Virus record (IMG/VR): IMGVR_UViG_3300008259_004318
Coordinates: 1 to 56,832 of that record
DNA length: 56,832 nucleotides
Direction: 5' to 3' (one strand)
Source: a virus
Taxonomy: Duplodnaviria; Caudoviricetes
Shown in pieces: positions 5,441 through 49,653 of this stretch. The notes beneath the pieces are model-generated. The model did no database searches. It saw only the letters and a program-made list of their open reading frames with translations, and had not been told where the DNA came from. The translations under genes were made by a program, and so were the position numbers. Every line of letters begins with the position of its first letter. Within the stretch, counting starts at the first letter, position 1.

Positions 5441-5488
5441 ATTAAATAAATATACATTAAAGTAAGTATTTATATAAATAAGATTTTT

Positions 5489-12566: not shown

Positions 12567-14876
12567 ATGAAAAAAAGATTTATTATATCTGAGTCTGAAA
12601 AAAAGACAATACTTGGTTTGTATAAGTTAATAAAAGAAGACACCAATACTTTTACTTATGATGTTGGGGATTATTTTAAAGTTAATAGTTACTCAAGTGA
12701 CATGGTTTACGAAATCACTAAAAAAGACGAAACTAAAGACAAATATATTTTAAATAAATATACAAAAGAAAGTGATGGTAAAATAGAAAAAATACAACAA
12801 GAACTGTCCAGAGATGGTTTTGAGGATCTCGTTACTGACGAAGTACTCATAAAAATGAAAGATAAAACGGAATTTGATGACTGGTATAATAACAAAACCA
12901 TTAATATTAAAAAAGTTGTAAGTACATCTAATGATGTAAAAATTGGTGATGCTTATAAAAACGCTAAGGATTATGGTCAACATTACAAAATTTTATCTTT
13001 AGATGAGACCACAAAAGACTATAAAGTTAATTTTTCAGGTTATGATGGTGGAGGTAATTTTGATACTACGGAAATACAATTATCACCTGATTGGTTTGAA
13101 AAAAACTTAAAATCTAATGAGATTATAAAAATTACTGAAGAAGAATATAATAGTTTTATTGAAAAACATAAGTACGATAGTATTGGTTGTGGTTATGATA
13201 AGACTAAAGGAACTATTTTAGGAGATGTTACAGAAATACCAAGAAATGGAATTGCTAAATTTGAAGGAACAATAAACGGTAAAGAAGTTTCAATAAATGG
13301 TTGTTTTAACAAAGGAAGTGCTATTTTAACTTACGACGAAGGTGAAACAGGATCGAGAGGAAATTTTAAAGGACATTATTATTCTAACGACACCACAGAA
13401 CCATTTTCTTTTAGTGGTAATTCTGGATTTTCTAATAATTTTTTAGCAGGTACTTTAGATAATGATAATGAAACAGATATTGAAGAATATAGAGGTAATT
13501 TTCATACAAGAACATGGACTTATAGTGGGTATTTTACAAAAGAAGGAAAAATCGGAGAGTCGAATCCTGAAATTTTAATCCCTGATAGTGGATCATTTAA
13601 GATTAATAAAACACCAACAATTTTATTTGCTTTAGGTGATTATTATTATGGAGAATTTAAAGATTCTAAAATTGACGGAAAAGGTGTTTATTATTTTGCA
13701 GATAATGGACTAAAATTACAAGGAGAGTTTAAAACAGTAGAGGAGGAAGGTGGCGTTTCATATTCATGTAAGTTAACTTCAGGAGAAGATATTCCTAATA
13801 TATTTGAATACAAAGAAAGGTATGATTTAGAAAAAAATAAGAAAAAAGAAGATAAAAGTTTTGGAGTTTTAAAAAAAGGAAAACTTAAAGGAACGACTTT
13901 TTTTGAAACTACTATAAAAAATACTGAAACTAAGGAAGAAAAAAAATTAAACGGAATATTACCTTATGTTAACATAAAAGTTCAAAACAAAAGGTACAAA
14001 GACATTATATTTGAAATAAAAAGTGATGAAAATGGGAATTTTGAATTTGAAGATTTGCCTTTTGGTGTGTATAAAATTCTTGCTGCTTACGATAAAGGTA
14101 ACGGGTTAGGTTTTGTATTACCAAGTCAGGGAATTTTCAAAAAAAATGAAGTTACTTTTGATGTTGATGGGAAAAGAAAAAATTTAACCTTATCACCAAC
14201 AAGAGGGACAAAAAAAATAGATAACCAAGAAGCAACCGAAATCCCTGAGTTTTTTAAAAACATAAATTCAAAAAATTATGTAGAACAAAGATTAAATCTT
14301 GAGTATTCTAAATATGAATATGAAAAATATTTAAAATCATCTAAACAAGAAATTGAGGACTATACAGATAAAAAAACTTTACAATTTTGTAAAAAAGAAA
14401 CGACATTATATGCTAAAATGGTTAGAGATCTATATAATGGAGTAATTACAAAAGAAATGGTAAAGTCCCCACAAAACCTACAACCAACAAAAGACTTTTT
14501 AAAAAGTTGTTATATGAGATATAAAAATGATTCTAAATTTTTTAATTATAAAAAGAATGAAGACTTAGTTTTATTAATGAATCCTGGTAATGATTTGTAT
14601 GGTTTTAAGATTGTTTTAGAACATAAAGATATTTATAGAAAAAATACAGACATGAGTATTACTAACTCAATAAGAAAAGTCATTAAAGAACACAGTCAAG
14701 TTAAAAAAGATTCTTTAATTGAAAATGAAATAATAAGAAATAGAATAAATTTTGTTATTAGAAATTCTAATAATCAAAATGTTAGAAAAAAATTAATAGA
14801 AGAATCAAAAAAATTAATTCACAACGGTTATAATGAAAAATTTGTAAAAAGTTTATTGAAAAAATTATTAAATTAA
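12567..14876 (+). CDS. hypothetical protein with MORN-like repeats and a carboxypeptidase-regulatory-like domain
   Basis: YYGEFKDSKIDGKGVYYFADNG (MORN-like); IKSDENGNFEFEDLPFGVYKI; TATTTAT at 12555-12561. Confidence 0.65.
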   Translation: MKKRFIISESEKKTILGLYKLIKEDTNTFTYDVGDYFKVNSYSSDMVYEITKKDETKDKYILNKYTKESDGKIEKIQQELSRDGFEDLVTDEVLIKMKDKTEFDDWYNNKTINIKKVVSTSNDVKIGDAYKNAKDYGQHYKILSLDETTKDYKVNFSGYDGGGNFDTTEIQLSPDWFEKNLKSNEIIKITEEEYNSFIEKHKYDSIGCGYDKTKGTILGDVTEIPRNGIAKFEGTINGKEVSINGCFNKGSAILTYDEGETGSRGNFKGHYYSNDTTEPFSFSGNSGFSNNFLAGTLDNDNETDIEEYRGNFHTRTWTYSGYFTKEGKIGESNPEILIPDSGSFKINKTPTILFALGDYYYGEFKDSKIDGKGVYYFADNGLKLQGEFKTVEEEGGVSYSCKLTSGEDIPNIFEYKERYDLEKNKKKEDKSFGVLKKGKLKGTTFFETTIKNTETKEEKKLNGILPYVNIKVQNKRYKDIIFEIKSDENGNFEFEDLPFGVYKILAAYDKGNGLGFVLPSQGIFKKNEVTFDVDGKRKNLTLSPTRGTKKIDNQEATEIPEFFKNINSKNYVEQRLNLEYSKYEYEKYLKSSKQEIEDYTDKKTLQFCKKETTLYAKMVRDLYNGVITKEMVKSPQNLQPTKDFLKSCYMRYKNDSKFFNYKKNEDLVLLMNPGNDLYGFKIVLEHKDIYRKNTDMSITNSIRKVIKEHSQVKKDSLIENEIIRNRINFVIRNSNNQNVRKKLIEESKKLIHNGYNEKFVKSLLKKLLN

Positions 14877-15008
14877 TATCGCTTAGTCATCGGCGATTAA
14901 TAAGGACGATGACGGGGTTTTTGAGTAGTTTCTTAAATCCATAAACCTTAAAGAAAGGGAGGTGTTCCAAAATCTAAGAAAGGTGTTTCGAAAGAAACAC
15001 CTTTTCTT
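14877..15008 (+). ncRNA. candidate structured ncRNA with an extended 16S rRNA 3'-end-complementary tract
   Basis: Pairings ATCGC/GCGAT, GTCATCG/CGATGAC (pseudoknot) and TAAGG/CCTTA; AGAAAGGGAGGTGTTCCA at 14952-14969; no start codon follows; terminator downstream. Confidence 0.55.
14979..15008 (+). terminator. intrinsic terminator
   Basis: AAAGGTGTTTC-GAAA-GAAACACCTTT perfect 11-bp stem, GNRA loop, pyrimidine tail. Confidence 0.75.
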
Positions 15009-15029
15009 CTATTAGGGTATTTATTATAT

Positions 15030-15800
15030 ATGGAATTTAATATCAGAAAAAAAGCAACGTTACCATATTTAGAATTAGATTTACATAAATCAGGTAGGTT
15101 AGATTATAATTTAAAAAATACTAACTTGTCAGATGCAACAATCTATTTATACATGAAAAATGTAGAAACAGGTGTGTATAAAATCGCAAAAGGTTTATGT
15201 ACATATTCACAAGAAAACAATTCCATTTATTATCAATTTACAAAAAAAAATACATCGGACATTGGAAGATTTGAAATCGAGTTTAGGGTTTCAAACGATC
15301 AAGGTGAAATTATTTTACCATTAACTGAAAAAATATTTGTCAATATTTTAGAGTCTTTCTCGAATAGTGATTTTTGTTGTGGACCAAATGCGATTATACC
15401 ACCAACACCGGTAACACCTACTCCGACTCCGACACCGACTCCAACACCGACTCCAACACCTGGACCTGAACCTCCTAAATTCTACTACGGTAAATTTACA
15501 GGTACGACAGTAACTTCAGGAGATGTGTTAACATTAAATGTTATAAGTACAAATAGTGCTGTTGGTAAATATGTTGAGTTCTTACCTGGTTTAGGATATG
15601 GTTATACGATTATACCAACATCGTTTACACAACCTGATAGATTTGTTAATAGTACTAATGGTTGTGATGGTATAATAATTCCAACAAATAATATTGGAAC
15701 TGTCGTAGTTAACGACATAAACGGATTCCCTGTAACGTATAATGTTTATAGAACATTCTACAAATTTAACGGACAATCTTATAGTTACATGTGTTTATAA
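15030..15800 (+). CDS. putative baseplate/tail appendage protein (BppU_N-like N-terminus, PT linker)
   Basis: FNIRKKATLPYL...YQF...DIGRFEIEF pattern, then (PT)n linker and a beta-rich C-domain. Confidence 0.55.
   Translation: MEFNIRKKATLPYLELDLHKSGRLDYNLKNTNLSDATIYLYMKNVETGVYKIAKGLCTYSQENNSIYYQFTKKNTSDIGRFEIEFRVSNDQGEIILPLTEKIFVNILESFSNSDFCCGPNAIIPPTPVTPTPTPTPTPTPTPTPGPEPPKFYYGKFTGTTVTSGDVLTLNVISTNSAVGKYVEFLPGLGYGYTIIPTSFTQPDRFVNSTNGCDGIIIPTNNIGTVVVNDINGFPVTYNVYRTFYKFNGQSYSYMCL
15400..15477 (+). repeat. (Pro-Thr)n coding linker
   Basis: PPTPVTPTPTPTPTPTPTPTPGPEPP encoded by CCN-ACN repeats. Confidence 0.9.
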
Positions 15801-22185: not shown

Positions 22186-25100
22186 ATGGCGAATAAAAAA
22201 ATCTCCGAATTACCATATATAAATGGCGGTCAAATCTCAGGAAACACTCTTGTTCCTTTGGTTACGTATTTTAGTGCTGCGACAGGTGACACTGTCCATA
22301 CATACATATCCGATTTTCAAGGGTATGTTTTAAGTGGTCAAACAATTACTGGTGGAACTTATAATTCTACATCAGGAAATATCACATTTTTTAATAATAG
22401 TGGAGGAACATTTATTGTTTCAGGTATAACAACAACAGGTTCTAGTGGGACTTCAGGGTCTTCTGGAACTAGTGGTATAAATGGAACATCAGGAACTTCA
22501 GGTGTTGATGGGACTAGCGGAATAGACGGGACTTCAGGTGTGAATGGCACATCAGGAATTAACGGTACTTCAGGTATAGATGGAACAAGTGGAATAAATG
22601 GTACTTCAGGTACTAGTGGTGTAAGCGGTATTGACGGAACATCAGGAACTTCAGGTTTAGATGGTACTTCAGGTACTAGCGGAATTGATGGTACTAGTGG
22701 TACATCTGGCGTAGACGGAACATCAGGAACTAGTGGAATAGACGGTACAAGTGGTTCTTCAGGTACGAGCGGAACTAGTGGAATAGATGGTACAAGTGGC
22801 AGTTCAGGTACATCTGGTACTAGCGGATTAGATGGAACATCGGGTACTAGCGGAATTAATGGTACATCAGGTACTAGTGGGACTTCAGGATTATCAGGAA
22901 CAAGCGGGACTTCAGGTATTAATGGAACTTCAGGAACCAGCGGAATAAATGGTACATCAGGTATTGATGGTACAAATGGTACATCAGGAACTAGCGGAAT
23001 TGATGGAACAAGTGGTTCGTCAGGAACTAGCGGAATTGATGGAACATCAGGATTAGATGGTACTAGTGGGACTTCCGGTATAAGTGGTACATCAGGATCT
23101 AGTGGTACATCAGGATCTAGTGGTACTTCAGGTATAAGCGGAATTTTAAGTGGACAAACATTAGGTGTAGGATTACCAATATTTAATTCAGGAACAACCG
23201 ATACCTTATTTTTTAATTCAATTACAGGAGATAGTTTAAATAAAATTACAACAACAACTAACAACGATACAATCGAAATTGGTATTAATGAACAAAATTT
23301 AACTCTTTGGGATTTAGTCGTTCAAGGTAATAGATTATTAAGTGGTAATGTTTCTTATATTAGTGGATTAACATTTAGTGTAAGTCCTTTAGAATATTTA
23401 ATTAATGGTACAATATACGATATAACTTCGGCAACTACAGTTACATTAAATAGTGGTGACTCTACCTATGATAGAATTGATGTAATTTATGCCGATATTA
23501 GTGGTAATACAGGTGTTTTAGAAGGGACTCCTTCCGAAAACCCTGAAAAACCTTTGGTGGATGGGGATATCCAGGTTGAGGTCACATTCGTTTTGGTTCC
23601 TGCTAATTCAACAACTGCAGATATAACGTCATTTATAATTTATAATGAAAATTTAGGATCACCAACAGAATGGACATTTGGTTCAGTAGGTCTACAACCG
23701 ACAAGAATTATTGGTTCATCTACAGGACAAACCTATAGTGGTTCTACATCCATTAGAGTGAGTGGGGTTACTGGGGTATTTACAACTTCATTTAGGTTGA
23801 CAGGATCCACAACACTAGATACGAATCAATACGCAACTTTACAATTTGCCATGAGAAATTTATCGGCAAATACGACAACAAGTCAAATAAGAATACGGTT
23901 TTTAAATACTGGTGGCACACAAAACGGTAATGCGGTTTTAATGAATGCTGCGGGGTCTTCAGGGTTTGTTCAGTATAGTAGCACAAACACGTCATCTTGG
24001 CAATTAATATCAATTCCATTATGGAGATTTTATTTAACAAATACAAATGTTCAGGTTGTTGAATTTTCATTTTATCCTGTTGGTGGCGGAGCTCAAGCAA
24101 GATATTATTTTGACTTATTAGAGTTTGTTGAAGGTACCGCATCTTCACCACCATCAAACAGTTGGACAACAATAAAAGGTGACGGCGCAACGACTATAAC
24201 GGCACCTAATCCAAACGCAACACTTACAATTTCAGGTGGAACAAATATCGGTTCATTTATATCAGGAACATCTACAGTTGTTTTAAACTTGGATAATAAT
24301 ATAACTTTAGGTAGTGTTTCTGCAACAACAATAACAGCAAACACTTTAAATGTTAGATCTATTGGTTCAGGAACATCTATAACTAATTTAGGTATAGATG
24401 TTAATGGAAATATTGTTTCAGGATCAACAGGTACGAGTGGTGGCGGTTCAGGTACTTCGGGTACTAGTGGTATCAACGGAACATCAGGTACTAGTGGAAT
24501 AAATGGAACTAGTGGTACGTCAGGAATAGATGGTACTAGCGGTACTTCTGGTATCAACGGAACATCAGGTACTAGTGGAACTTCAGGCATCAACGGCACA
24601 TCAGGTACTAGCGGAATATCTGGCACATCAGGTACAAGCGGAATTGATGGGACAAGCGGTACAAGCGGAATTTCGGGTACATCAGGTACTAGTGGTTTAT
24701 CAGGTACTAGTGGTATTGATGGGACAAGCGGCACATCAGGAATAAATGGTACTAGTGGTATTGATGGTACCTCTGGAACAAGTGGTTCTTCAGGTACGTC
24801 AGGAACTTCAGGTACGTCAGGAATAAGTGGTACATCAGGTACATCAGGTATTAATGGTACTTCGGGTACTAGCGGAATTAATGGAACAAGTGGTGTCAAC
24901 GGTACATCAGGTACTAGCGGTTCTTCAGGGACAAGCGGAACATCAGGTTCTTCCGGCACAAGTGGTATTAACGGACTTAACGGTATATCAAGTGGTTTAG
25001 TTTACTACTACGATGGTAGTGGAACAACACAAACAGTTCCAATTGCGTCCTTAGTTACAGATAATTTATTATTATCACCAAACATAGGAACACAAACCTT

Positions 25101-27936
25101 AATAACAACATCTAGTTTTAATGAAGCTGACGGAGATACAAAAATAATTCAATATATAACACCCGCAGTATCTTTACAAACAACAACAATTTTACCTGGT
25201 ATATGGATAAATAACTTAATTGCACAAAAAACTTCAGGTACAGGAAATCTTGTTTATTGGATTGTTATTGATGAGATTGGTTCTGACGGCACAACGTTTA
25301 TAGGTAATATTGCAACAGGTAATGTTGGTTCAGGAACATTAATATCAACAACCCAATCAAATTACATATATAACCAATTTGTCTCATCATATCTTTTAGC
25401 GTCTGTAAATTCAAGAATTAGAGTTAGTATATACGCTAACACAACAGGTACCAATAACGCATTCAATATTGAAATGAGAGATTCTACCCTTTCTAATATT
25501 GTTACAACATTGGCGGCTAACCTTTCGGGAACATCAGGTATAGATGGAACTAGTGGTACTTCTGGTATCAACGGAACATCGGGAACTAGTGGCACATCAG
25601 GAATAAACGGGACTTCTGGAATTAACGGTACTTCAGGTACTAGTGGAACAAGTGGATCTTCAGGAACTAGTGGTACTTCGGGTATTTCAGGAACGAGCGG
25701 TACGTCTGGGGTTAATGGTACATCAGGTACGAGCGGTACGTCTGGGGTTAATGGAACTTCGGGAACAAGCGGAACATCAGGTATCAACGGTACATCGGGT
25801 ACTAGCGGATCAAGTGGCACATCAGGAACAAGTGGTATTAACGGAACTTCAGGAACAAGCGGAAGTAGTGGAACTTCAGGTAGTTCAGGAACTAGCGGGT
25901 CAAGTGGTACATCAGGAACAAGCGGATCAAGTGGCACATCAGGAACTTCAGGTTCTTCAGGAACTTCGGGTACGAGCGGTATTAGTGGTACATCAGGAAC
26001 GAGTGGTACGTCAGGTACTAGCGGTACAAGTGGAATAAACGGTACATCAGGAACTAGTGGTACAAGCGGTGTAAATGGAACTAGCGGCACTTCTGGAACT
26101 AGCGGTTCTAGCGGCACATCAGGAACTTCAGGAACATCGGGTACTAGTGGTGTTAATGGATTAAATGGTACGAATGGAACATCAGGAACTAGTGGAATTA
26201 ATGGTACGAGCGGAACAAGTGGATCTTCAGGCACTTCAGGTACTAGTGGTGTTAACGGAACGAGTGGTACATCAGGAACGAGCGGTATAAATGGTACAAA
26301 CGGGACTTCAGGTACTAGTGGTGTTAACGGAACGAGTGGTACATCAGGGACTAGCGGAGTAAATGGGACTTCGGGAACGAGCGGCACATCGGGAAGTTCG
26401 GGTACGAGTGGTACTTCAGGGACTAGTGGTAAATCAGGAACTAGCGGCACATCAGGAGTTAACGGCACAAGTGGTACTTCAGGGACTAGTGGTAAATCAG
26501 GTAATGATGGGTCAAATTCATCAAGATACCTATATAAAAATAATGAATCGGCGCCTACAGATCCAGGGTCGACTCAATTTGTTGCTGACACTAACACTAT
26601 CGGTAGTGTGACATTGTTCTCAATCAGTAAAGATGATATAAATAATGTCGACTTATACAGTTGGTGGCAAGTTTTAGTTGACCAATTTAACGTTTCAGGT
26701 AGACCCGCATTTTTACAAATTATAGAAGTTAACGACAATAGTAAATTTGGGTATTTTAATATTGATAATATTACCGATCAGACAACTTATTTTGATATAA
26801 ATGTTACGTATTTGGCGGGTAATACTACTTTAGGTAATAATGTTGTGTTTACCATAACTTGGAATACTGACGGAGCAAATGGATCTAACGGTATTAATGG
26901 ATCTTCAGGAACATCAGGTACTAGTGGAACTTCAGGTTCTTCGGGAACAAGTGGTAGTAGCGGAACATCAGGAACGAGCGGGTCAAGTGGTACTAGCGGA
27001 ACATCAGGATCTTCAGGTACTAGTGGAGTTGCAATTATATTAAATAACACAAATAATAATGTATTAACGGCAACAGGGACTTCGGGAGTCATAACAGGAG
27101 AACCTAATTTTACTTTTGATGGTACAACCGCAGTAATTACAGGTAATTTAACTGTTAGTGGAAATTCAGGAATAAATTGGTTTAGTGCAAATACAACGAC
27201 AGACGCCTTTAGAATAACACAAGCAGGTACAGGAAACGCATTTGTTGTTGAGGACTCAACAAATCCCGATTCAACACCTTTTGTTATAAATAATTCAGGA
27301 AGTGTCGGTATTGGTACATCTAATCCACAATTTCTACTTCAGGCATTTAGTGGAAATAGTACTTTCTATTATGATCCGACTAGTGTTGGCGGTAGATTCA
27401 ATATTAGTGGTAGTACCGGAATACCAAGAATTGACGTAGCGATTGGACCTTACCTTACAAAAGTGGCTACAGGTGGTAGTGTAGGAATGAGGACTTGGGA
27501 CGATGCCACCAATGGTGGTTATGGTAAAGTTGGGGACATGTTCATATATGCCGGTAATGAAACAAACGGAATAGTCATAATTAATCAAGGTCCCGGTACT
27601 GGCACCGACGATTACATTAGATTTTATGCTGGACGAGACACCACGAATACGTCAGATATACATATCCAAGGAACTGGAACCACAAGAGGTTTTGTTGGTA
27701 TTGGAACAGAATCACCAAGACAAAGATTAGACGTAAATGGAAGTACAATTGTTTCAAATACTTTAAGTGCCTCTACCATGGTTATAACTACACAACCAAC
27801 CAGCGGTTACACATCGACTCAAATATTAATGAGAAATTCAACAACGGGAACTGTTGAAATTACAGATAGTACGTCACCGGCTATTTATAATTATGGAATG
27901 ACTTACGCGATGACAAACTTTAACTATTTAACATAA
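22186..27936 (+). CDS. collagen-like (Gly-X-Y; GTS/GSS/GIN/GID) fibre protein
   Basis: Four long G-X-Y blocks separated by beta-rich globular domains; MANKKISELP N-motif; C-terminal GFVGIGTESPRQRLDVNG. Confidence 0.85.
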   Translation: MANKKISELPYINGGQISGNTLVPLVTYFSAATGDTVHTYISDFQGYVLSGQTITGGTYNSTSGNITFFNNSGGTFIVSGITTTGSSGTSGSSGTSGINGTSGTSGVDGTSGIDGTSGVNGTSGINGTSGIDGTSGINGTSGTSGVSGIDGTSGTSGLDGTSGTSGIDGTSGTSGVDGTSGTSGIDGTSGSSGTSGTSGIDGTSGSSGTSGTSGLDGTSGTSGINGTSGTSGTSGLSGTSGTSGINGTSGTSGINGTSGIDGTNGTSGTSGIDGTSGSSGTSGIDGTSGLDGTSGTSGISGTSGSSGTSGSSGTSGISGILSGQTLGVGLPIFNSGTTDTLFFNSITGDSLNKITTTTNNDTIEIGINEQNLTLWDLVVQGNRLLSGNVSYISGLTFSVSPLEYLINGTIYDITSATTVTLNSGDSTYDRIDVIYADISGNTGVLEGTPSENPEKPLVDGDIQVEVTFVLVPANSTTADITSFIIYNENLGSPTEWTFGSVGLQPTRIIGSSTGQTYSGSTSIRVSGVTGVFTTSFRLTGSTTLDTNQYATLQFAMRNLSANTTTSQIRIRFLNTGGTQNGNAVLMNAAGSSGFVQYSSTNTSSWQLISIPLWRFYLTNTNVQVVEFSFYPVGGGAQARYYFDLLEFVEGTASSPPSNSWTTIKGDGATTITAPNPNATLTISGGTNIGSFISGTSTVVLNLDNNITLGSVSATTITANTLNVRSIGSGTSITNLGIDVNGNIVSGSTGTSGGGSGTSGTSGINGTSGTSGINGTSGTSGIDGTSGTSGINGTSGTSGTSGINGTSGTSGISGTSGTSGIDGTSGTSGISGTSGTSGLSGTSGIDGTSGTSGINGTSGIDGTSGTSGSSGTSGTSGTSGISGTSGTSGINGTSGTSGINGTSGVNGTSGTSGSSGTSGTSGSSGTSGINGLNGISSGLVYYYDGSGTTQTVPIASLVTDNLLLSPNIGTQTLITTSSFNEADGDTKIIQYITPAVSLQTTTILPGIWINNLIAQKTSGTGNLVYWIVIDEIGSDGTTFIGNIATGNVGSGTLISTTQSNYIYNQFVSSYLLASVNSRIRVSIYANTTGTNNAFNIEMRDSTLSNIVTTLAANLSGTSGIDGTSGTSGINGTSGTSGTSGINGTSGINGTSGTSGTSGSSGTSGTSGISGTSGTSGVNGTSGTSGTSGVNGTSGTSGTSGINGTSGTSGSSGTSGTSGINGTSGTSGSSGTSGSSGTSGSSGTSGTSGSSGTSGTSGSSGTSGTSGISGTSGTSGTSGTSGTSGINGTSGTSGTSGVNGTSGTSGTSGSSGTSGTSGTSGTSGVNGLNGTNGTSGTSGINGTSGTSGSSGTSGTSGVNGTSGTSGTSGINGTNGTSGTSGVNGTSGTSGTSGVNGTSGTSGTSGSSGTSGTSGTSGKSGTSGTSGVNGTSGTSGTSGKSGNDGSNSSRYLYKNNESAPTDPGSTQFVADTNTIGSVTLFSISKDDINNVDLYSWWQVLVDQFNVSGRPAFLQIIEVNDNSKFGYFNIDNITDQTTYFDINVTYLAGNTTLGNNVVFTITWNTDGANGSNGINGSSGTSGTSGTSGSSGTSGSSGTSGTSGSSGTSGTSGSSGTSGVAIILNNTNNNVLTATGTSGVITGEPNFTFDGTTAVITGNLTVSGNSGINWFSANTTTDAFRITQAGTGNAFVVEDSTNPDSTPFVINNSGSVGIGTSNPQFLLQAFSGNSTFYYDPTSVGGRFNISGSTGIPRIDVAIGPYLTKVATGGSVGMRTWDDATNGGYGKVGDMFIYAGNETNGIVIINQGPGTGTDDYIRFYAGRDTTNTSDIHIQGTGTTRGFVGIGTESPRQRLDVNGSTIVSNTLSASTMVITTQPTSGYTSTQILMRNSTTGTVEITDSTSPAIYNYGMTYAMTNFNYLT
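22438..23143 (+). repeat. G-X-Y coding repeat block 1
   Basis: 9-nt periodic, synonymously diverged (GTS/GID/GIN)n; boundaries approximate. Confidence 0.9.
24430..24995 (+). repeat. G-X-Y coding repeat block 2
   Basis: Same pattern as block 1; boundaries approximate. Confidence 0.9.
25527..26512 (+). repeat. G-X-Y coding repeat block 3 (longest)
   Basis: About 1 kb of (GTS/GSS/GVN)n; boundaries approximate. Confidence 0.9.
26872..27027 (+). repeat. G-X-Y coding repeat block 4
   Basis: Short (GTS/GSS)n block; boundaries approximate. Confidence 0.85.
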
Positions 27937-34226: not shown

Positions 34227-34439
34227 TGGTGGAGGTGGAGGGGCTCGAACCCTCGTCCATAACATCCTGTCAGATAAGGACTACACGTTTAGGTTAACAT
34301 TTTCTAATTTAAACCAACCACTGAAAGGTTATCAAGTACGTTGCCGTATATAAATGTGAATCAGTTTTTAAAGAGATTAACTCAGTCCCTACGTGCCCTT
34401 ATTCTTCAGCCGATACCTGTCAAATCCAAAAACACCCCC
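34227..34439 (-). ncRNA. ssrA: tmRNA, abnormally short (213 nt)
   Basis: 5' GGGGGTG...GGATTTGAC; 3' GACGAGGGTTCGAGCCCCTCCACCTCCACCA; acceptor stem with G3.U; helix-2 pairing ATAAGGGC/GTCCTTAT; candidate tag frame 34345-34304. Confidence 0.9.
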
Positions 34440-44831: not shown

Positions 44832-46610
44832 ATGTCTTTATCAAAAGAACAAGCACTTTTAGAATATGCTAAATGCGTAAATGACACACCATACGCGTTA
44901 AAAACGTATTTACAAACTTACGACAATACACAATCACAGTACGTACCTTTAGAATTATTTAATGACCAAGTAACCCTTGTAAAAGATTATGATACTTGTG
45001 AGGAAAATATAGCACTAAAATACCGACAAGCGGGAGTATCAACAGTAACATCCGCATGGGCATCAAAAAGGTTGGTATTTGCAAACAAGAAAAAACCCGA
45101 AAAAATCCTAATCATTGCAAACAAAATGGATACTGCCGTTGAGATGGCGAATAAAGTTAGATCATTTGTTGACCAATGGCCAAAATGGATGGGTGTTGGG
45201 TTTTCATCAGAAAAAAACTCACAAAGACACTTTAAATTAACGAATGGTTGTGAGGTTAAGGCGGTTGCAACATCAAAAGATGCCTTACGTGGTTATACAC
45301 CAACAATACTTATTTTTGATGAGGCAGCATACATCAATGCAGATGAAGACTTTTGGTCTGCATGTATGGCATCCCTTTCAACAGGAGGTAAAGTTATTGT
45401 AATTTCAACACCAAATGGATTTGACCCAATTTATTATTCTATTTACAGTCAGGCGGTTAAAGGTATGAATGACTTTAGAATTACTGAAATGTATTGGTTT
45501 AGGGATCCAAGATATTCTAAAGATTTAAAATTGGTTAAATGTGATGATATTGTTCATTACATGTTAAATAGAGGTGACTATGAAGATAATGAAATTACAA
45601 TAGATTATAGTAATATAAAAGTTAGTGAGAGAAACTTTGAAGAAATAAAACAAAAAATAGAAAACGAAGGGTATAAACCTTATAGTTCTTGGTTTGAGGC
45701 CATGGCCAAAAAATTAAAGTTTGATAAGAGAAAGATTTCACAAGAGTTGGAATGTAATTTTTTAGGTTCGGGGGATAATGTTATACCTGCTGAAACTATG
45801 AAAAAAATTAAAGAAAAACATATTAAAGAACCCGAAAATAAATTTATGGGTGGTGCCCTTTGGCAATGGAAAGAACCCGTTGTTGGTCACAGATACATAA
45901 TGGGTGTTGACGTTTCAAGAGGTGATAGTGAAGATTTTAGCACTTTATCTATAATTGATTTTGATGAAAGAGAACAAGTATTAGAATATATTGGTAAAGT
46001 TCCTCCTGATATTTTAGCAGAAATTGCCTATAAATGGGGTACCATGTATAACGCATTTATTGTGACCGATATTACTGGTGGAATGGGTGTTTCGACATCA
46101 AGAAAACTACAAGAACTTGGTTATAAAAATTTATACGTTGATGGTGTTAATCCTGCAGATAAATGGAAGTGGGATCCTAAAAATCAAGATAAAATACCAG
46201 GAATTAACTTTAACTCAAAGAGGGTTTTAATAATACAGGCATTTGAAGAAGCGTTAAGATTTGATTTTGTTATGAGGTCACAAAGGTTGTTTAACGAATT
46301 AAATACCTTTGTCTATGTAAACGGTAGGCCTGACCACCAAAAAGGACAACATGATGATTTAATAATGGCATTTGCTATGGCAGTTTATGTTGGGGAAACT
46401 TCATTCGCACAATTAGAAAAGGCTACGGAGCATGCAAAGGCGATGTTAGAGTCTTGGTCTGTAGAATCTAATAAATATACTGGAGATTATACAAGTTTTA
46501 ATCCTGGATTACCAATTTCAACATCACAAAACGAAGTTTATAATAGAAGTCAAGTTACTAAAAGTGATTATGAAAAGTATTTATGGTTATTCGGACCTAA
46601 AAGGGTTTAA
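44832..46610 (+). CDS. terL: terminase large subunit (T4 gp17-like)
   Basis: LKYRQAGVST Walker A variant, LIFDEAA Walker B, ISTPNG, QELECNF, GVDVSRG, HDDLIMA. Confidence 0.93.
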   Translation: MSLSKEQALLEYAKCVNDTPYALKTYLQTYDNTQSQYVPLELFNDQVTLVKDYDTCEENIALKYRQAGVSTVTSAWASKRLVFANKKKPEKILIIANKMDTAVEMANKVRSFVDQWPKWMGVGFSSEKNSQRHFKLTNGCEVKAVATSKDALRGYTPTILIFDEAAYINADEDFWSACMASLSTGGKVIVISTPNGFDPIYYSIYSQAVKGMNDFRITEMYWFRDPRYSKDLKLVKCDDIVHYMLNRGDYEDNEITIDYSNIKVSERNFEEIKQKIENEGYKPYSSWFEAMAKKLKFDKRKISQELECNFLGSGDNVIPAETMKKIKEKHIKEPENKFMGGALWQWKEPVVGHRYIMGVDVSRGDSEDFSTLSIIDFDEREQVLEYIGKVPPDILAEIAYKWGTMYNAFIVTDITGGMGVSTSRKLQELGYKNLYVDGVNPADKWKWDPKNQDKIPGINFNSKRVLIIQAFEEALRFDFVMRSQRLFNELNTFVYVNGRPDHQKGQHDDLIMAFAMAVYVGETSFAQLEKATEHAKAMLESWSVESNKYTGDYTSFNPGLPISTSQNEVYNRSQVTKSDYEKYLWLFGPKRV

Positions 46611-46650: not shown

Positions 46651-48462
46651 ATGGCAGAACAAAAATATACAGTTTGGCAAAGGTTAGGTAGGGTTTTCGG
46701 ACCTAACGCAACAATGGACCAGCAAGCACCGGTTTTTAAATTCGATAAAAAACAATTATTAAAAACCGCAGATAAAAATGAATACGAGAAAGAAAAACTT
46801 GAAGCCCAACAAACAATGTATGTTGGTAAACAATGGCAAAGAGTTGAGACAAATCTATACCAACAGGCGGTTTATTATGAACCAACAAGAATGGCATCAT
46901 ATTATGATTATGAGTCTATGGAATACACACCTGAAATTTCAGCCGCTTTAGATATATACGCCGAAGAATCAACAACACCCGATCAAGACGGTTTAATTTT
47001 GAGGGTTTATTCTGAATCTAAAAGAATAAAACAAGTATTAACCGATCTATTCACAAACAAACTTGACATAAACACTAATTTACCTATGTGGACAAGAAAC
47101 ACATGTAAATTTGGTGATAATTTTATTTATTTAAAATTAGATCCCGAAAATGGGGTTGTTGGGTGTCAACAATTACCTAACATACAAATAGAAAGATTAG
47201 AAAAGGGTATGAGATTCCAACCTGACAAATACTCTCAAGAAATGGAAAACGATGCTTTGAAGTTTGTGTGGAAAGAAAAAAACATGGAGTTTAATACTTG
47301 GGAAGTTGCTCACTTTAGAATATTGGGAGACGATAGAAAACTACCTTATGGTACTTCTATGTTGGAAAAGGCTAGACGTATTTGGAAGCAATTATTACTT
47401 TCAGAAGATGCGATGTTGGTATATAGGGTTTCAAGGGCACCTGAAAGAAGAGTATTCAAAATTTTTGTAGGTAACATGGACGATAAAGATGTCGATGCAT
47501 ATGTTCAAAAAGTCGCAAATAAATTTAAAAGGGATCAAATTGCGGACCCACAAACAGGGAATGTAGATTTAAGATATAATCAATTGGCGGTTGATCAAGA
47601 TTATTTTATTCCTGTTAGAGATGCCGCTGCGGGTAATCCAATTGACACATTACCGGCAGGTCAAAACTTGGCGGAAATTGCGGACATTGAGTATATCCAA
47701 AAGAAATTAGTTACTGCACTTAGAATACCAAAGGCGTATTTAGGATTTGAAGAGGCTGTTGGTGACGGTAAAAATTTATCATTATTAGATATTAGATTTG
47801 CAAGAACTATTAATAGAATTCAAAAATCTATGATTGCGGAATTAAACAAAATTGCAATCATACATTTATTTTTATTGGGGTTTGAAGATGAGCTTACAAA
47901 CTTTACGTTGAGTCTAAATAACCCATCAAAACAAGGTGAACTTTTATCTATTGAAATTTGGAAAGAAAAAATAACTCTTTATAAAGATGCGGTTGCTGAA
48001 GTTGCTAATTCATTAGCACCGACATCAGCATCCTGGGCTAAAAAACACATTTTAGGGTTTTCTGATGAAGAAATAAGGTTAGATATCCAACAACAAAGAA
48101 TAGAAAGGGCAGTTTATGGTGAGTTAGCAAAAACACCTGAAGTTATTACAAAAACAGGAATATTCGATAATATTGACCAATTATATACTAAAAAAGATGC
48201 GGGAGCGGCTCCTGGTGGGGCACCTGCACCTGGTGGAGCACCTGCACCTGGTGGAGAACCTGCACCTGGTGGGGCACCACCTGCACCTGAACCACCAGCA
48301 CCTGGTGGAAGTGAGGTAACACCTGAAAGTTTTAAAAAAAATGATTTAAATTTAATATTAGAAGATAGTATTTTTTATGGTAAAACTTCATTAGATTTAT
48401 CAAAAGGAAGACTATCTTTAGATCAAGTAGACAAAAAATTGAAAGATTTAATTGATAAGTGA
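46651..48462 (+). CDS. portal protein (T4 gp20-like)
   Basis: PEISAALDIYAEE, LSEDAMLVYRVSRAPERRVF, QDYFIPVR, IDTLPAGQNL, ALRIPKAYL; PGGAPA tail repeats. Confidence 0.92.
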   Translation: MAEQKYTVWQRLGRVFGPNATMDQQAPVFKFDKKQLLKTADKNEYEKEKLEAQQTMYVGKQWQRVETNLYQQAVYYEPTRMASYYDYESMEYTPEISAALDIYAEESTTPDQDGLILRVYSESKRIKQVLTDLFTNKLDINTNLPMWTRNTCKFGDNFIYLKLDPENGVVGCQQLPNIQIERLEKGMRFQPDKYSQEMENDALKFVWKEKNMEFNTWEVAHFRILGDDRKLPYGTSMLEKARRIWKQLLLSEDAMLVYRVSRAPERRVFKIFVGNMDDKDVDAYVQKVANKFKRDQIADPQTGNVDLRYNQLAVDQDYFIPVRDAAAGNPIDTLPAGQNLAEIADIEYIQKKLVTALRIPKAYLGFEEAVGDGKNLSLLDIRFARTINRIQKSMIAELNKIAIIHLFLLGFEDELTNFTLSLNNPSKQGELLSIEIWKEKITLYKDAVAEVANSLAPTSASWAKKHILGFSDEEIRLDIQQQRIERAVYGELAKTPEVITKTGIFDNIDQLYTKKDAGAAPGGAPAPGGAPAPGGEPAPGGAPPAPEPPAPGGSEVTPESFKKNDLNLILEDSIFYGKTSLDLSKGRLSLDQVDKKLKDLIDK

Positions 48463-49214: not shown

Positions 49215-49480
49215 AAAAATTTTTTAAAGGAATCGGTAGATTGTTTATGGACAGTCAAGGAAACGCATCTTCAAAAAGGTTTGTAGGGATTCTTTGTGGT
49301 GTTTCTCTTTGCATTACTTTATATGCGAACAGTTATACACACGGAGATATCAAACCTTCAGACACATTAGTAAATGCTGTTGCTATGTTGGCGTTTGGTT
49401 GTTTAGGTCTTACCTCTACAGAAAAGATTTTTGGAAAAAAATCAGAAGAGAAAAAAGAAGAAACTCAAGAAGAAATTTGA
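49211..49480 (+). CDS. small two-TM membrane protein (holin-like)
   Basis: SSKRFVGIL + two hydrophobic helices + charged C-tail. Confidence 0.55.
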   Translation: MKKFFKGIGRLFMDSQGNASSKRFVGILCGVSLCITLYANSYTHGDIKPSDTLVNAVAMLAFGCLGLTSTEKIFGKKSEEKKEETQEEI

Positions 49481-49653
49481 TTTTTCTGCTTATATTGAGC
49501 CTTTTTAATTTGAGCCCTTCGTTTAACGGAGGGTTTTTTATATTCTTGACGTTCTTGTAATTTTTGGATTTGTTTTGTTTTATATATTTTAAACTTATAT
49601 GTTTTTAATGCTTGTTCAAGAGACTTTTCATTTTTTACGTGTACTATAATCAT
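49465..49653 (-). CDS. rpsU: ribosomal protein bS21 (Bacteroidota-like)
   Basis: MIIVHVKNEKSLEQALKTYK...ERQEYKKPSVKRRAQIKKAQYKQ; 62 aa from ATG 49653. Confidence 0.9.
   Translation of the reverse strand: MIIVHVKNEKSLEQALKTYKFKIYKTKQIQKLQERQEYKKPSVKRRAQIKKAQYKQKNQISS

What the first reader, a model, noticed from the sequence alone, without database searches (positions are those of the whole stretch)
14877..15008. Candidate phage ncRNA carrying an orphan 'super-Shine-Dalgarno' complementary to the host 16S rRNA 3' end
Seen: a GC-richer island in AT-rich intergenic DNA. It has hairpin ATCGC(14878-82)/GCGAT(14893-97), whose loop GTCATCG(14886-92) pairs with CGATGAC(14907-13) as a pseudoknot, a closing helix TAAGG(14901-05)/CCTTA(14946-50), then AGAAAGGGAGGTGTTCCA (14952-69) and a terminator. 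Known: Bacteroidota 16S rRNA ends ...UGGAACACCUCCUUUCU, whose reverse complement is AGAAAGGAGGTGTTCCA. The phage tract matches 12 nt perfectly and 17 of 18 with one bulged G, including the Bacteroidota-type GTGTTCCA rather than the E. coli-type GTGATCCA. No start codon lies at SD distance, and I saw no SD at gene starts in the window. Inference: a 30S-binding decoy or sensor RNA that captures ribosomes with an exposed anti-SD (for example lacking bS21), or a 3' element that protects the transcript with a bound ribosome.
Basis: partly seen in the sequence, partly recalled or inferred. Interest (0 to 1): 0.9.

Follow-up and report, generated by a model that had tools for sequence, protein, structure and literature searches.

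The report
Phage RNA carrying orphan ribosome-binding site
Giant lake phages of Bacteroidota that encode their own ribosomal protein S21 also carry a conserved, folded RNA of about 135 bases whose open stretch is a near-perfect match to the tail of the host's 16S ribosomal RNA yet starts no gene, so it probably grips ribosomal small subunits rather than making protein.

Summary
Window 14876-15013 (+) is a real, conserved, structured RNA element with no Rfam match. In order it has an H-type pseudoknot, a hairpin with a GUAG loop, a single-stranded CAUAAAC, an extended Shine-Dalgarno (SD) tract, an invariant AUC-UAA, and an intrinsic terminator. Three helices and the pseudoknot covary: 94.5% of cells are paired, and 21 pairs carry double changes against 11.0±1.9 in shuffles. 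G·U versus A·C counts (65 vs 2) show the + strand is the RNA.

The tract stays nearly constant (GGRGGUGUUC) while neighbouring stems covary. It pairs with all 17 nt of a Flavobacterium 16S tail at -26.9 kcal/mol. The family median is -24.6, against -19.8 for host rpsU leaders, which the literature describes as the only strongly SD-led host genes. None of 43 phage gene starts has an SD, and none of 69 family members has a start codon behind the tract.

The element is single-copy and sits at a transcript's 3' end, in one clade between convergent genes. It is not universal among bS21 phages.

Most likely it docks 30S subunits whose 16S tail is free (bS21-less), as a decoy competing with host rpsU. 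Binding and transcription are untested.

The parts
14878..14897 (+). P1 hairpin: 14878-82 pairs with 14893-97. Its loop supplies the 5' strand of the pseudoknot.
   Evidence: All 5 pairs show double changes in 15 sequences, with 85.3% of cells paired. In relatives this region is the last codons of the upstream ORF, or lies just behind its stop.
14886..14913 (+). Pseudoknot helix: 14886-91 pairs with 14908-13, plus G14892-C14907 in the window. Together with P1 this is an H-type pseudoknot (L1 3 nt, L2 0 nt, L3 9 nt).
   Evidence: All 6 pairs show double changes. In 60 distinct sequences 95.9% of cells are paired.
14915..14940 (+). Hairpin: 14915-20 pairs with 14935-40 and 14923-24 with 14931-32. 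It has a 2x2 internal loop and an apical loop GUAGUU with invariant GUAG.
   Evidence: 6 of 8 pairs show double changes. GUAG is invariant in 15 of 15 sequences.
14940..14946 (+). Single-stranded CAUAAAC, conserved even in the distant copies.
   Evidence: Invariant in A1. ATAAAC is also kept in L367, L368 and L369.
14952..14969 (+). Extended orphan Shine-Dalgarno tract AGAAAGGGAGGUGUUCCA, with core GGAGG at 14958-62.
   Evidence: It pairs with all 17 nt of the Flavobacterium 16S tail at -26.9 kcal/mol. The core GGRGGUGUUC is present in 68 of 69 distinct family segments (TGTTC was part of the search pattern). It is constant in the protein-anchored set, where downstream protein identity falls to 53%.
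14972..14977 (+). Invariant AUC-UAA, 9 nt after the SD core (8-9 nt across the family). Its role is unexplained.
   Evidence: ATCTAAG is invariant in the protein-anchored set. AUCUA is kept in the distant copies, as AUC UAU UAA in L368 and L369.
14976..15008 (+). Intrinsic terminator. The upper stem is 14982-89 / 14994-15001 with loop GAAA. The invariant lower stem is AAGAAAGG / CCUUUUCUU, followed by a U-tract reaching 15013.
   Evidence: Terminator scan. 4 upper-stem pairs covary, 9 lower pairs never vary, and 100% of cells are paired.
12567..14876 (+). Upstream ORF (769 aa, unannotated) whose mRNA 3' end most likely carries the element.
   Evidence: ORF list. No solid family match. In relatives the ORF ends inside the element's first 45 nt or so.
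15017..15024 (+). GTATTTAT, a promoter-like motif 5 nt before the ATG of the next gene (15030-15800). It is not part of the RNA.
   Evidence: A TATTTAT-type motif recurs before many gene starts. It is kept before homologues of this gene in relatives that lack the element.
49465..49653 (-). Phage bS21 gene, the presumed functional partner. It has no SD upstream.
   Evidence: PF01165 match at 41.7 bits. Upstream sequence; ORF.

Best explanation
The element is the structured 3' end of a late structural-gene transcript, possibly released as a small RNA of about 135 nt. Its function is to base-pair, through its unpaired extended SD, with the free 3' tail of host 16S rRNA.

In Bacteroidia that tail is normally buried under bS21, bS18 and bS6. 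The RNA should therefore dock selectively on 30S subunits that lack bS21. There is no start codon, and the terminator hairpin begins 13 nt after the SD core. A docked subunit would be held without initiating.

The tract imitates the extended SD of the host bS21 gene (rpsU) and is thermodynamically stronger. The most likely outcome is that it acts as a decoy. It would outcompete rpsU mRNA for bS21-free subunits, blunting the host's bS21 autoregulation while the phage supplies its own SD-less bS21.

Shown here: the conserved structure, the strand, the constancy and complementarity of the tract, the absence of an ORF, the 3'-end position and the single copy.

Inferred: transcription, 30S binding, selectivity for bS21-free subunits, and the competition with rpsU.
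For: (1) Real RNA. In 15 sequences 94.5% of cells are paired, and 21 pairs carry changes on both sides against 11.0±1.9 in shuffles (0 of 500 reach it) and 3-11 when partners are slid. In 60 distinct sequences 96.1% are paired, with 16 of 27 pairs doubly changed. G·U/U·G versus A·C/C·A cells are 65 vs 2.

(2) The tract has no covarying partner and stays constant while adjacent stems covary. An A-to-G change in the core (GGAGG to GGGGG) keeps pairing with CCUCC as G·U. The same variant occurs in a host rpsU leader whose own genome has a CCUCC tail (L190 and L130).

(3) Strength. The window scores -26.9 kcal/mol and 69 family members have a median of -24.6. Thirty-one Flavobacteriaceae rpsU leaders have a median of -19.8 and a best of -22.2. 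Sixty of 69 phage tracts beat every host leader sampled.

(4) Conservation stops at the C that pairs with the base just after helix 45; the next base varies among C, T and A.

(5) None of 69 members has ATG, GTG or TTG 4-17 nt downstream. None of 43 phage gene starts pairs at -10 kcal/mol or stronger. Phage bS21 has no SD.

(6) Position at a 3' end. The upstream ORF ends inside or just before the 5' hairpin. In G015 the copy lies between convergent genes, and in G012 and G013 it has a different downstream gene.

(7) Single copy in each of 5 large relatives and in the window.

(8) Literature (passages read). F. johnsoniae ribosomes ignore SDs unless bS21 or its C-terminus is missing. rpsU is the one gene with an extended SD, with up to 13 bp of pairing (PMC9976891). 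The oligo AGAAAGGAGGU was used as the SD ligand for the tail ACCUCCUUUCU (PMC7797042).
Against: There is no transcript evidence. Four RNA runs gave no contig over the element.

No binding data exist.

The hosts are unknown. The tail used for energies comes from one Flavobacterium.

Thermodynamic folding, which is blind to pseudoknots, leaves the core only about 0.45 unpaired on average. RNAalifold proposes two weak local helices over parts of the tract. They are 98% paired but show no double changes.

Most members carry a one-base bulge relative to the perfect complement. One member has GGAGA and scores -15.6. The distant copies L368 and L369 keep only the 5' half, at -14.0 and -12.5.

The element is not tied to bS21. 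It is present in G006 (96% complete), where bS21 was not detected. It is absent from G011 (100% complete, bS21 present), which also has no other orphan extended SD.

The lower terminator stem never varies and is itself SD:anti-SD-like. That hints at a different or additional ligand.

The patterns used to enlarge the family fixed CATAAAC, TGTTC and TCTAAGAAAGG. Invariance of those blocks in the large set is therefore partly due to ascertainment.
Confidence: 0.4

Rival explanations
1. Cis-acting transcript protector. A 30S subunit parked on the orphan SD, together with the 5' pseudoknot and the terminator hairpin, shields the 3' end of the upstream late mRNA from nucleases. This resembles STAB-SD, moved to the 3' end. 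It has no trans effect on host translation.
For: It rests on the same pairing evidence as the main reading. The element always sits at the end of a coding transcript, and the upstream ORF overlaps it. STAB-SD shows that a non-initiating SD can stabilise mRNA through 30S binding (PMC4113751, passage read).
Against: Only one transcript in a genome of about 290 kb carries it. The upstream gene differs between clades: a 391-aa protein in L367 shows no BLASTP similarity to the window's 769-aa protein, best E 0.035. That fits a portable trans-acting module better than a gene-specific stabiliser. A terminator hairpin alone usually protects 3' ends. Wild-type Bacteroidia ribosomes do not bind SDs (PMC9976891), so protection would depend on a rare subpopulation.
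Confidence: 0.2
2. bS21-protein ligand. The invariant lower terminator stem (AAGAAAGGU paired with ACCUUUUCUU; in L367 AGAAAGGGGGUC paired with GACCCCCUUUU) imitates the duplex between an SD and the 16S tail and binds bS21 directly, as stem P6 of OLE RNA does. It would act as a sponge for host bS21 or as a loading platform for phage bS21. The upstream tract would be a second, competing SD strand.
For: Nine lower-stem pairs never vary, while the upper stem covaries freely. The 3' arm resembles the 16S tail, and the 5' arm repeats AGAAAGG from the tract. There is a precedent: bS21 binds an intramolecular SD:anti-SD mimic in OLE RNA (PMC12054373, passages read).
Against: The 3' arm lacks the CCUCC core that defines the OLE mimic. 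An A-tract/U-tract lower stem is also what an intrinsic terminator needs, so its invariance has a simpler reading. This model does not explain why the upstream tract matches the tail over 15-17 nt and stays constant. No Rfam OLE match was found.
Confidence: 0.12
3. The likeness to an SD is incidental. The purine-rich tract, CAUAAAC and AUCUAAG would be contact sites for another factor, such as a phage RNA-binding protein or RNA polymerase in a put-like or antitermination element. Alternatively the tract alternates with the terminator's 5' arm for the same 3' arm to tune termination.
For: Several other single-stranded blocks (CAUAAAC, AUCUAAG) are as conserved as the tract and have no 16S explanation. 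The tract can pair with the terminator's 3' arm in most members, by inspection.
Against: The tract does not covary with the terminator. In L055 and L199 the upper stem is GGTGACTC/GAGTCACC and the tract is unchanged. Either pairing would leave a hairpin plus U-tract, so there is no switch logic. A 10-nt core that matches the 16S tail exactly, tolerates only G·U-compatible changes, and ends at the helix-45 boundary is hard to get by chance. In L367 there is no downstream gene to regulate.
Confidence: 0.15
4. Ribosome-dependent read-through device, or a minimal 'start-stop' site. A subunit bound at the SD places AUC (14972-74) in the P site and UAA in the A site and covers the terminator's 5' arm. 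Ribosome binding during transcription would then suppress termination and let polymerase run into the downstream genes.
For: AUC-UAA is invariant at 8-9 nt from the core, whereas host rpsU has its AUG 7-10 nt from GGAGG. The terminator's 5' arm starts within the footprint expected for a P-site-positioned ribosome; this is inference from general knowledge of ribosome footprints.
Against: AUC is a poor start codon. The downstream gene has its own promoter-like motif, which relatives lacking the element also keep. In L367 the element faces a convergent gene. In L368 and L369 the sequence reads AUC UAU UAA.
Confidence: 0.08

Closest known systems
STAB-SD 5' mRNA stabiliser of Bacillus thuringiensis cry3A
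   Same: An SD sequence complementary to the 16S 3' end that does not direct initiation. It is thought to work by binding a 30S subunit (PMC4113751, passage read).
   Different: STAB-SD lies near the 5' end of a long leader and blocks 5'-to-3' decay by RNase J1 in an SD-using Firmicute. Here the tract lies at a transcript's 3' end, directly before a terminator, inside a pseudoknotted structured RNA. The host lineage has ribosomes that ignore SDs, and the complementarity covers the whole free tail (15-17 nt).
Extended-SD leader of rpsU (bS21) in Flavobacteriales
   Same: The same kind of sequence, (A/G)GAAAGG(A/G)GGUG, complementary to the 16S tail far beyond the core. It includes the same GGGGG variant. 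It is recognised only by bS21-lacking ribosomes (PMC9976891).
   Different: The host element is a leader of about 25 nt followed by an AUG 7-10 nt away and the bS21 ORF. The phage element has no AUG and no ORF, pairs more strongly (median -24.6 vs -19.8 kcal/mol), carries about 75 nt of upstream structure, and is followed by a terminator. The phage's own bS21 gene is 35 kb away and has no SD.
P6 SD:anti-SD mimic of OLE RNA that binds bS21
   Same: A non-coding RNA that borrows the SD/anti-SD sequence logic and is linked to bS21 (PMC12054373, passages read). The element's terminator stem is a loosely similar duplex.
   Different: OLE carries the anti-SD copy CCUCCU paired inside a stem and binds the protein. 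Here the perfect element is the SD strand, left unpaired. The paired 3' arm lacks CCUCC. There is no sequence or Rfam relationship. OLE is a roughly 600-nt RNA of Bacillota.
RNA decoys of cellular machines (6S RNA for RNA polymerase; CsrB/RsmZ for CsrA). These names are recalled and come from no call.
   Same: The concept is the same: an abundant structured RNA presents an imitation of the natural nucleic-acid target and titrates the machine or protein.
   Different: The target here would be the 16S rRNA tail of a ribosome subpopulation. None of my searches turned up such a decoy.

Membership tests
Any Rfam 15 family | Covariance-model match at or near the gathering score | tested here: not met
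   The whole window at gathering threshold returned only tmRNA at 34227-34439. For 14700-15150 at E up to 10, the best hit was 20.9 bits against an 80-bit cut-off.
STAB-SD-type stabiliser | SD-like tract complementary to the 16S 3' end | tested here: met
   -26.9 kcal/mol with all 17 tail bases paired.
STAB-SD-type stabiliser | Does not direct initiation (no start codon at SD distance) | tested here: met
   0 of 69 members have ATG, GTG or TTG 4-17 nt downstream.
STAB-SD-type stabiliser | Lies in the 5' untranslated region, upstream of the protected coding sequence | tested here: not met
   It is followed at once by a terminator. The upstream ORF runs into it. In L367 a convergent gene follows.
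STAB-SD-type stabiliser | 30S binding blocks a 5'-to-3' exonuclease | not testable with these tools
   Needs biochemistry.
rpsU extended-SD autoregulatory leader | Extended complementarity to the 16S tail (up to 13 bp in hosts) | tested here: met
   Phage median -24.6 against host median -19.8 kcal/mol.
rpsU extended-SD autoregulatory leader | AUG 7-10 nt downstream, opening a bS21 ORF | tested here: not met
   AUC UAA follows. bS21 is at 49465-49653(-) with no SD.
OLE-type SD:anti-SD mimic | Intramolecular duplex containing an exact copy of the anti-SD (CCUCC) | tested here: not met
   The 3' arm reads ACACCUUUUCUU. In L367 it reads ACCCCCUUUU.
OLE-type SD:anti-SD mimic | Binds bS21 | not testable with these tools
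   Complex prediction handles protein-protein pairs only, so no job was sent.
Intrinsic (Rho-independent) terminator | G+C-rich hairpin followed by a U-tract, with the hairpin maintained by compensatory change | tested here: met
   Scan hit at 14978-15005. 100% of cells are paired and 4 pairs are doubly changed. Termination itself is not shown.
Riboswitch or attenuator leader | Lies 5' of the regulated gene and has a conserved alternative (antiterminator) pairing | tested here: not met
   No covarying alternative helix was found; the tract does not covary with the terminator. In L367 there is no downstream gene on the same strand.
H-type pseudoknot | Two helices in which the loop of the first pairs downstream, both supported by covariation, with loop lengths that can span the grooves | tested here: met
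   P1 has 5 of 5 and the second helix 6 of 6 pairs with double changes. Loops are 3, 0 and 9 nt. In the L052/L054/L056 subgroup P1 does not align well and a nested hairpin seems to replace it, by inspection.

The most novel reading that the evidence does not exclude
The RNA is the phage's tool for re-equipping host ribosomes. Its complementarity is longer than that of any host mRNA, so it invades and pulls the 16S 3' tail out of the bS21/bS18/bS6 pocket, or captures the tail the moment host bS21 leaves. That loosens host bS21, holds the subunit idle with no start codon, starves host rpsU mRNA of the only ribosomes able to translate it, and hands the subunit to phage bS21. In short, it would be an RNA exchange factor and decoy aimed at a ribosome subpopulation. 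[quoted passage not shown]
Probability: 0.2. Interest if true: 0.92.

Novelty: new variant of a known kind. Interest (0 to 1): 0.78.

Why it matters
Bacteroidia ribosomes hide their anti-SD, and one host gene, rpsU, exploits the rare bS21-free ribosomes through an extended SD. How bS21-encoding phages take over these ribosomes is an open question. The 2022 description of this phage group does not mention UTRs, intergenic elements, promoters or terminators in its main text.

A conserved, single-copy, structured phage RNA that presents a stronger copy of the rpsU signal without any gene behind it gives that question a concrete handle. It predicts selective binding to bS21-less 30S and competition with rpsU. 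The published F. johnsoniae strains, reporters and filter-binding assays can test both directly.

It would also be the first natural RNA I could find that is aimed at the 16S tail as a decoy rather than as a start signal. Independent of mechanism, it is a new covariation-supported RNA motif with 69 distinct examples.

Tried and rejected
- Rfam gave nothing for the element.
- The supplements of PMC9723584 and PMC9976891 (rpsU SD lists, phage genome tables) could not be seen and may bear on host range and SD statistics.

**Transcription**
- One RNA run held 10% of the sampled words; three more runs came from another study.
- When laid, there was no contig over 14877-15029. One 204-nt contig matched 15425-15600 at 100%. 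The rest were short, low-identity hits to a Pro/Thr-rich repeat. This says nothing about transcription either way.

**Host link through bS21**
- A protein-pattern scan of genome contigs with the phage bS21 found no relative.

**SD for the downstream gene: rejected**
- The core lies 67 nt from the ATG.
- The gene keeps its own GTATTTAT motif in the relatives without the element that were printed.
- Other clades have a different or convergent downstream gene.

**Hidden ORF: rejected**
- GTG at 14961 opens 17 codons in the window, but one-base spacer indels in relatives break the frame (for example L046 reads GTG TTC TAA).
- No canonical start lies at SD distance in any of 69 members.

**Minus-strand RNA or DNA palindrome: rejected**
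- 65 G·U cells against 2 A·C cells.

**Extra copies: rejected**
- The G008 hit at 32.9 bits is a tRNA plus terminator.
- The G006 hit at 40.5 bits is an A/U-rich stretch plus terminator with no tract.

**Host origin**
- 3 of 121 Flavobacteriaceae genomes gave hits of 36-37 bits, driven by terminators and A-rich runs. None is convincing.

**Homology of upstream proteins across clades**
- BLASTP gave a best E of 0.035 (L367) and 0.061 (L369). Homology is not established.

**Accessibility by folding**
- The result was ambiguous, with mean unpaired probability 0.45 for the core.

**Obligatory partner of bS21: rejected**
- See G006 and G011.

**Chance hits**
- Only 3 of 39 viral loci with the exact 15-mer are relatives.
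- 9 of the 81 loci given to the model (80 from the metagenome scan, 1 from a viral scan) were unrelated sequences without the tract.
Full report
**What is there**

The window is a 56.8-kb fragment of an IMG/VR virus record, rated 18% complete by CheckV. It encodes the following:
- a tail fibre (22186-27936);
- a large terminase (44832-46610);
- a portal (46651-48462);
- a major head protein (52810-54684);
- a protease (54897-56351);
- a ribosomal protein bS21 on the reverse strand, at 49465-49653.

This matches the conserved region described for bS21-encoding huge phages of freshwater Bacteroidetes (PMC9723584, abstract and passages read).

The finding lies in the 153-nt gap between a 769-aa ORF (12567-14876) and a 256-aa ORF (15030-15800). 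Both are on the + strand and neither has an informative family match. The stretch is GC-richer than its flanks, 0.36 against 0.15-0.29.

**Relatives**

I collected relatives in four ways.
- A protein-anchored search with the downstream ORF gave 11 loci, with downstream protein identity of 53-90%. All of them carry the same upstream sequence.
- DNA-pattern scans of viral contigs gave 17 and 18 stretches.
- One metagenome scan reported 87 stretches, of which 80 loci were listed.
- A covariance model (R1) matched 72 of the 81 loci given to it. The 9 misses are unrelated sequences without the tract.

Together these give 69 distinct family segments.

A profile search with the N-terminal domain of the downstream protein is not biased by my DNA patterns. 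It kept 80 of 130 loci.
- The 22 loci with identity of 55% or more lie on contigs that carry the element. Four of these were new and were confirmed with R1. The other 18 are contigs already seen.
- None of the 58 loci with identity of 46% or less has the element upstream.

**Structure**

On 15 sequences the following structure was tested: an H-type pseudoknot (P1 14878-82/14893-97; second helix 14886-91/14908-13), a hairpin (14915-20/14935-40 plus 14923-24/14931-32, loop GUAG) and a terminator (14976-15008).
- 94.5% of cells are paired.
- 21 pairs change on both sides, against 11.0±1.9 in column shuffles (0 of 500 reach it) and 3-11 when partners are slid.

On 60 distinct sequences aligned to the model, which favours the model somewhat, 96.1% of cells are paired and 16 of 27 pairs are doubly changed.

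G·U/U·G cells outnumber A·C/C·A cells by 65 to 2. The folded molecule is therefore RNA read from the + strand.

The window's sequence folds at -38.2 kcal/mol, z = -3.3. Two small local helices that RNAalifold draws over parts of the tract are compatible with the data but show no double changes. No Rfam family matches.

**The tract**

Between the covarying helices lie constant single-stranded blocks: CAUAAAC, the tract AAAGAAAGGGAGGUGUUC, and AUCUAAG.

*Sequence variation*
- The core is GG(A/G)GGUGUUC in 68 of 69 segments. TGTTC was required by the search pattern. The same holds in the protein-anchored set, and the two extra members found by protein search have GUGUUU.
- The observed core changes are A-to-G and C-to-U. 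Both keep pairing with a CCUCC...G partner as G·U.
- The purine run 5' of the core varies more.

*The host tail*
- The 17-mer TGGAACACCTCCTTTCT is the 3' end of the 16S gene in Flavobacterium laiguense.
- It occurs mainly in Bacteroidota genomes.
- Jha et al. used AGAAAGGAGGU as the SD ligand for the F. johnsoniae tail ACCUCCUUUCU (PMC7797042, passage read).

*Pairing strength*
- RNAduplex pairs all 17 tail bases with the window's tract, with one bulged G, at -26.9 kcal/mol.
- This is the strongest site on either strand of the window. The next is -18.9, inside an ORF. Shuffled 40-mers give -5.4±2.2.
- Conservation ends at the C opposite the first unpaired base after helix 45. The numbering and the helix boundary are from general knowledge of 16S structure, not from a call.

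**No gene behind it**

None of 69 members has ATG, GTG or TTG 4-17 nt after the core. What follows is an invariant AUC UAA, 8-9 nt from the core, and then the terminator.

None of 43 gene starts in the window pairs with the tail at -10 kcal/mol or better; the median is -2.0. The phage bS21 gene has no SD.

The downstream ORF keeps a GTATTTAT motif 5-6 nt before its ATG. A TATTTAT-type motif stands before many genes of the window, and before homologues of this ORF in relatives that lack the element. I read it as a phage promoter; this is inference only.

**Where it sits**

In many relatives the upstream ORF ends inside the first 45 nt or so of the element. In L040 the P1 region is translated as ...YRSVGGD*. 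In the window a stop precedes the equivalent YRLVIGD. In L048 a stop interrupts it. The 5' hairpin is therefore kept as RNA whether or not it is coding.

R1 finds exactly one strong copy (118.8-133 bits) in each of five large relatives, including a 281-kb, 96%-complete genome, and one in the window. Weaker hits are a tRNA plus terminator and a terminator.

Diverged copies lie elsewhere in the genomes of more distant bS21 phages, scoring 50.1, 40.7 and 39.8 bits with R1 and 66-69 bits with a 3'-module model R2.
- In G012 and G013 the copy follows a small helical protein and has a different downstream gene.
- In G015 it lies between convergent genes.

The element therefore behaves as a portable module at the 3' end of a transcript, not as a leader.

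**Comparison with the host signal**

McNutt et al. show three things (PMC9976891, passages read). F. johnsoniae ribosomes use SDs only when bS21 or its C-terminus is missing. rpsU is the one gene with an extended SD. This constitutes bS21 autoregulation.

I extracted 31 rpsU leaders from Flavobacteriaceae genomes.
- 26 of the 31 have an extended SD such as AAAGAAAGGAGGUG or GAAAGGGGGUG, placed 7-10 nt before AUG. Their median is -19.8 kcal/mol and the best is -22.2.
- The phage family median is -24.6, and 60 of 69 members exceed every sampled host leader.

The element thus presents the host's unique bS21-feedback signal in a stronger form and with nothing to translate.

**Mechanism**

My best reading, at confidence 0.4, is a trans-acting dock or decoy for 30S subunits whose tail is free. 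It would compete with rpsU mRNA while the phage makes its own SD-independent bS21.
- Shown: structure, strand, constancy, complementarity, absence of an ORF, position and copy number.
- Inferred: transcription, binding, selectivity and the effect on rpsU.

Rivals are as follows.
- A cis-acting 3'-end protector with a parked subunit (0.2).
- A bS21-protein ligand in which the invariant lower terminator stem imitates the SD:tail duplex, as OLE RNA's P6 does (PMC12054373) (0.12).
- An unrelated factor site or termination tuner (0.15).
- A ribosome-dependent read-through or start-stop device (0.08).

**Evidence that cuts against a simple story**
- RNA data are uninformative.
- Folding leaves the core only about 0.45 unpaired.
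- One member has GGAGA, at -15.6. Two distant copies keep only half of the complementarity, at -14.0 and -12.5.
- G006 has the element but no detectable bS21.
- G011 is complete and has bS21, but it has neither the element nor any other orphan extended SD. Its best tail-matching sites, at -22 to -20, all lie inside open frames.
- Among ten large records, bS21 was found in 4 of 5 with the canonical element and in 4 of 5 distant ones.

**Novelty**

Full-text searches and term look-ups in the 2022 phage paper found no description of this element. In that paper 'UTR', 'intergenic', 'terminator' and 'promoter' each occur 0 times in the main text.

The nearest known things are STAB-SD (PMC4113751), the rpsU leader and the OLE P6 mimic. 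The element fails a defining feature of each; see the membership table. I rate it a new variant of the 'non-initiating SD that binds 30S' kind, with a bolder decoy or exchange-factor reading still open.

Noticed in passing
window 34227-34439 (-): A 213-nt minimal tmRNA. It matches Rfam RF00023 at 93.9 bits, with an intact tRNA-like domain ending ...CCACCA and a first pseudoknot, but most of the region for pseudoknots 2-4 is missing. ARAGORN did not call it. It is a second ribosome-directed RNA in the same phage.
   Followed up: partly
window, many gene starts (e.g. 2676-2683, 5466-5473, 15017-15024; also before 8948, 12567, 16259, 22186, 41636, 50230): A recurrent (A/T)TATTTAT motif lies 4-25 nt before start codons. 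It is probably the phage's promoter element and implies very short leaders. The exact 8-mer GTATTTAT is not enriched on its own: 10 found against 7.3 expected. It is conserved before homologues of the 256-aa gene in distant relatives.
   Followed up: partly
window 14874-14903; L040, L048: The codons under the 5' hairpin read as a conserved C-terminal peptide, (Y/F)R.V.G(D/G), in relatives. In the window a stop codon lies one codon before it, and in L048 a stop interrupts it. RNA structure, not coding, seems to hold this stretch.
   Followed up: partly
L042, L046, L049, L052, L056, L298 versus window, L040, L044, L048, L053, L306: The protein upstream of the element comes in two forms. One has an extra helical C-terminal region ending ...DAVGG..., and the other lacks it. 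In G012 and G013 a separate protein of about 220 aa with a similar tail precedes the diverged element.
   Followed up: no
L190 / L130 (one Flavobacterium laiguense genome): The host rpsU leader uses GAAAGGGGGUG although the same genome's 16S tail has CCUCC. An A-to-G change that pairs as G·U is therefore tolerated in a natural extended SD, as in many phage tracts.
   Followed up: partly
L395, L396, L399, L401, L402 and the table: Many Flavobacteriaceae genomes hold 2-3 bS21 genes. Five of the best-scoring copies have no SD at all, at -3.7 to -7.3 kcal/mol.
   Followed up: no
L196 1540-1660 (G008 about 217.2 kb): A tRNA-like gene directly followed by the terminator AAAAAAGGTGTTGG...CCAACACCTTTTTTT, whose stem resembles the terminator of the element.
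   Followed up: no
window 15400-15470: A Pro/Thr-rich linker (TPTPTPTP...) in the 256-aa protein lies in a GC-rich stretch (0.46-0.48). Short RNA-run contigs from other organisms match this repeat.
   Followed up: no
L009, L019, L032 (unrelated viral contigs): The same 15-mer AAGGGAGGTGTTCCA sits directly before an ATG. In other phages it serves as an ordinary, very strong SD.
   Followed up: no
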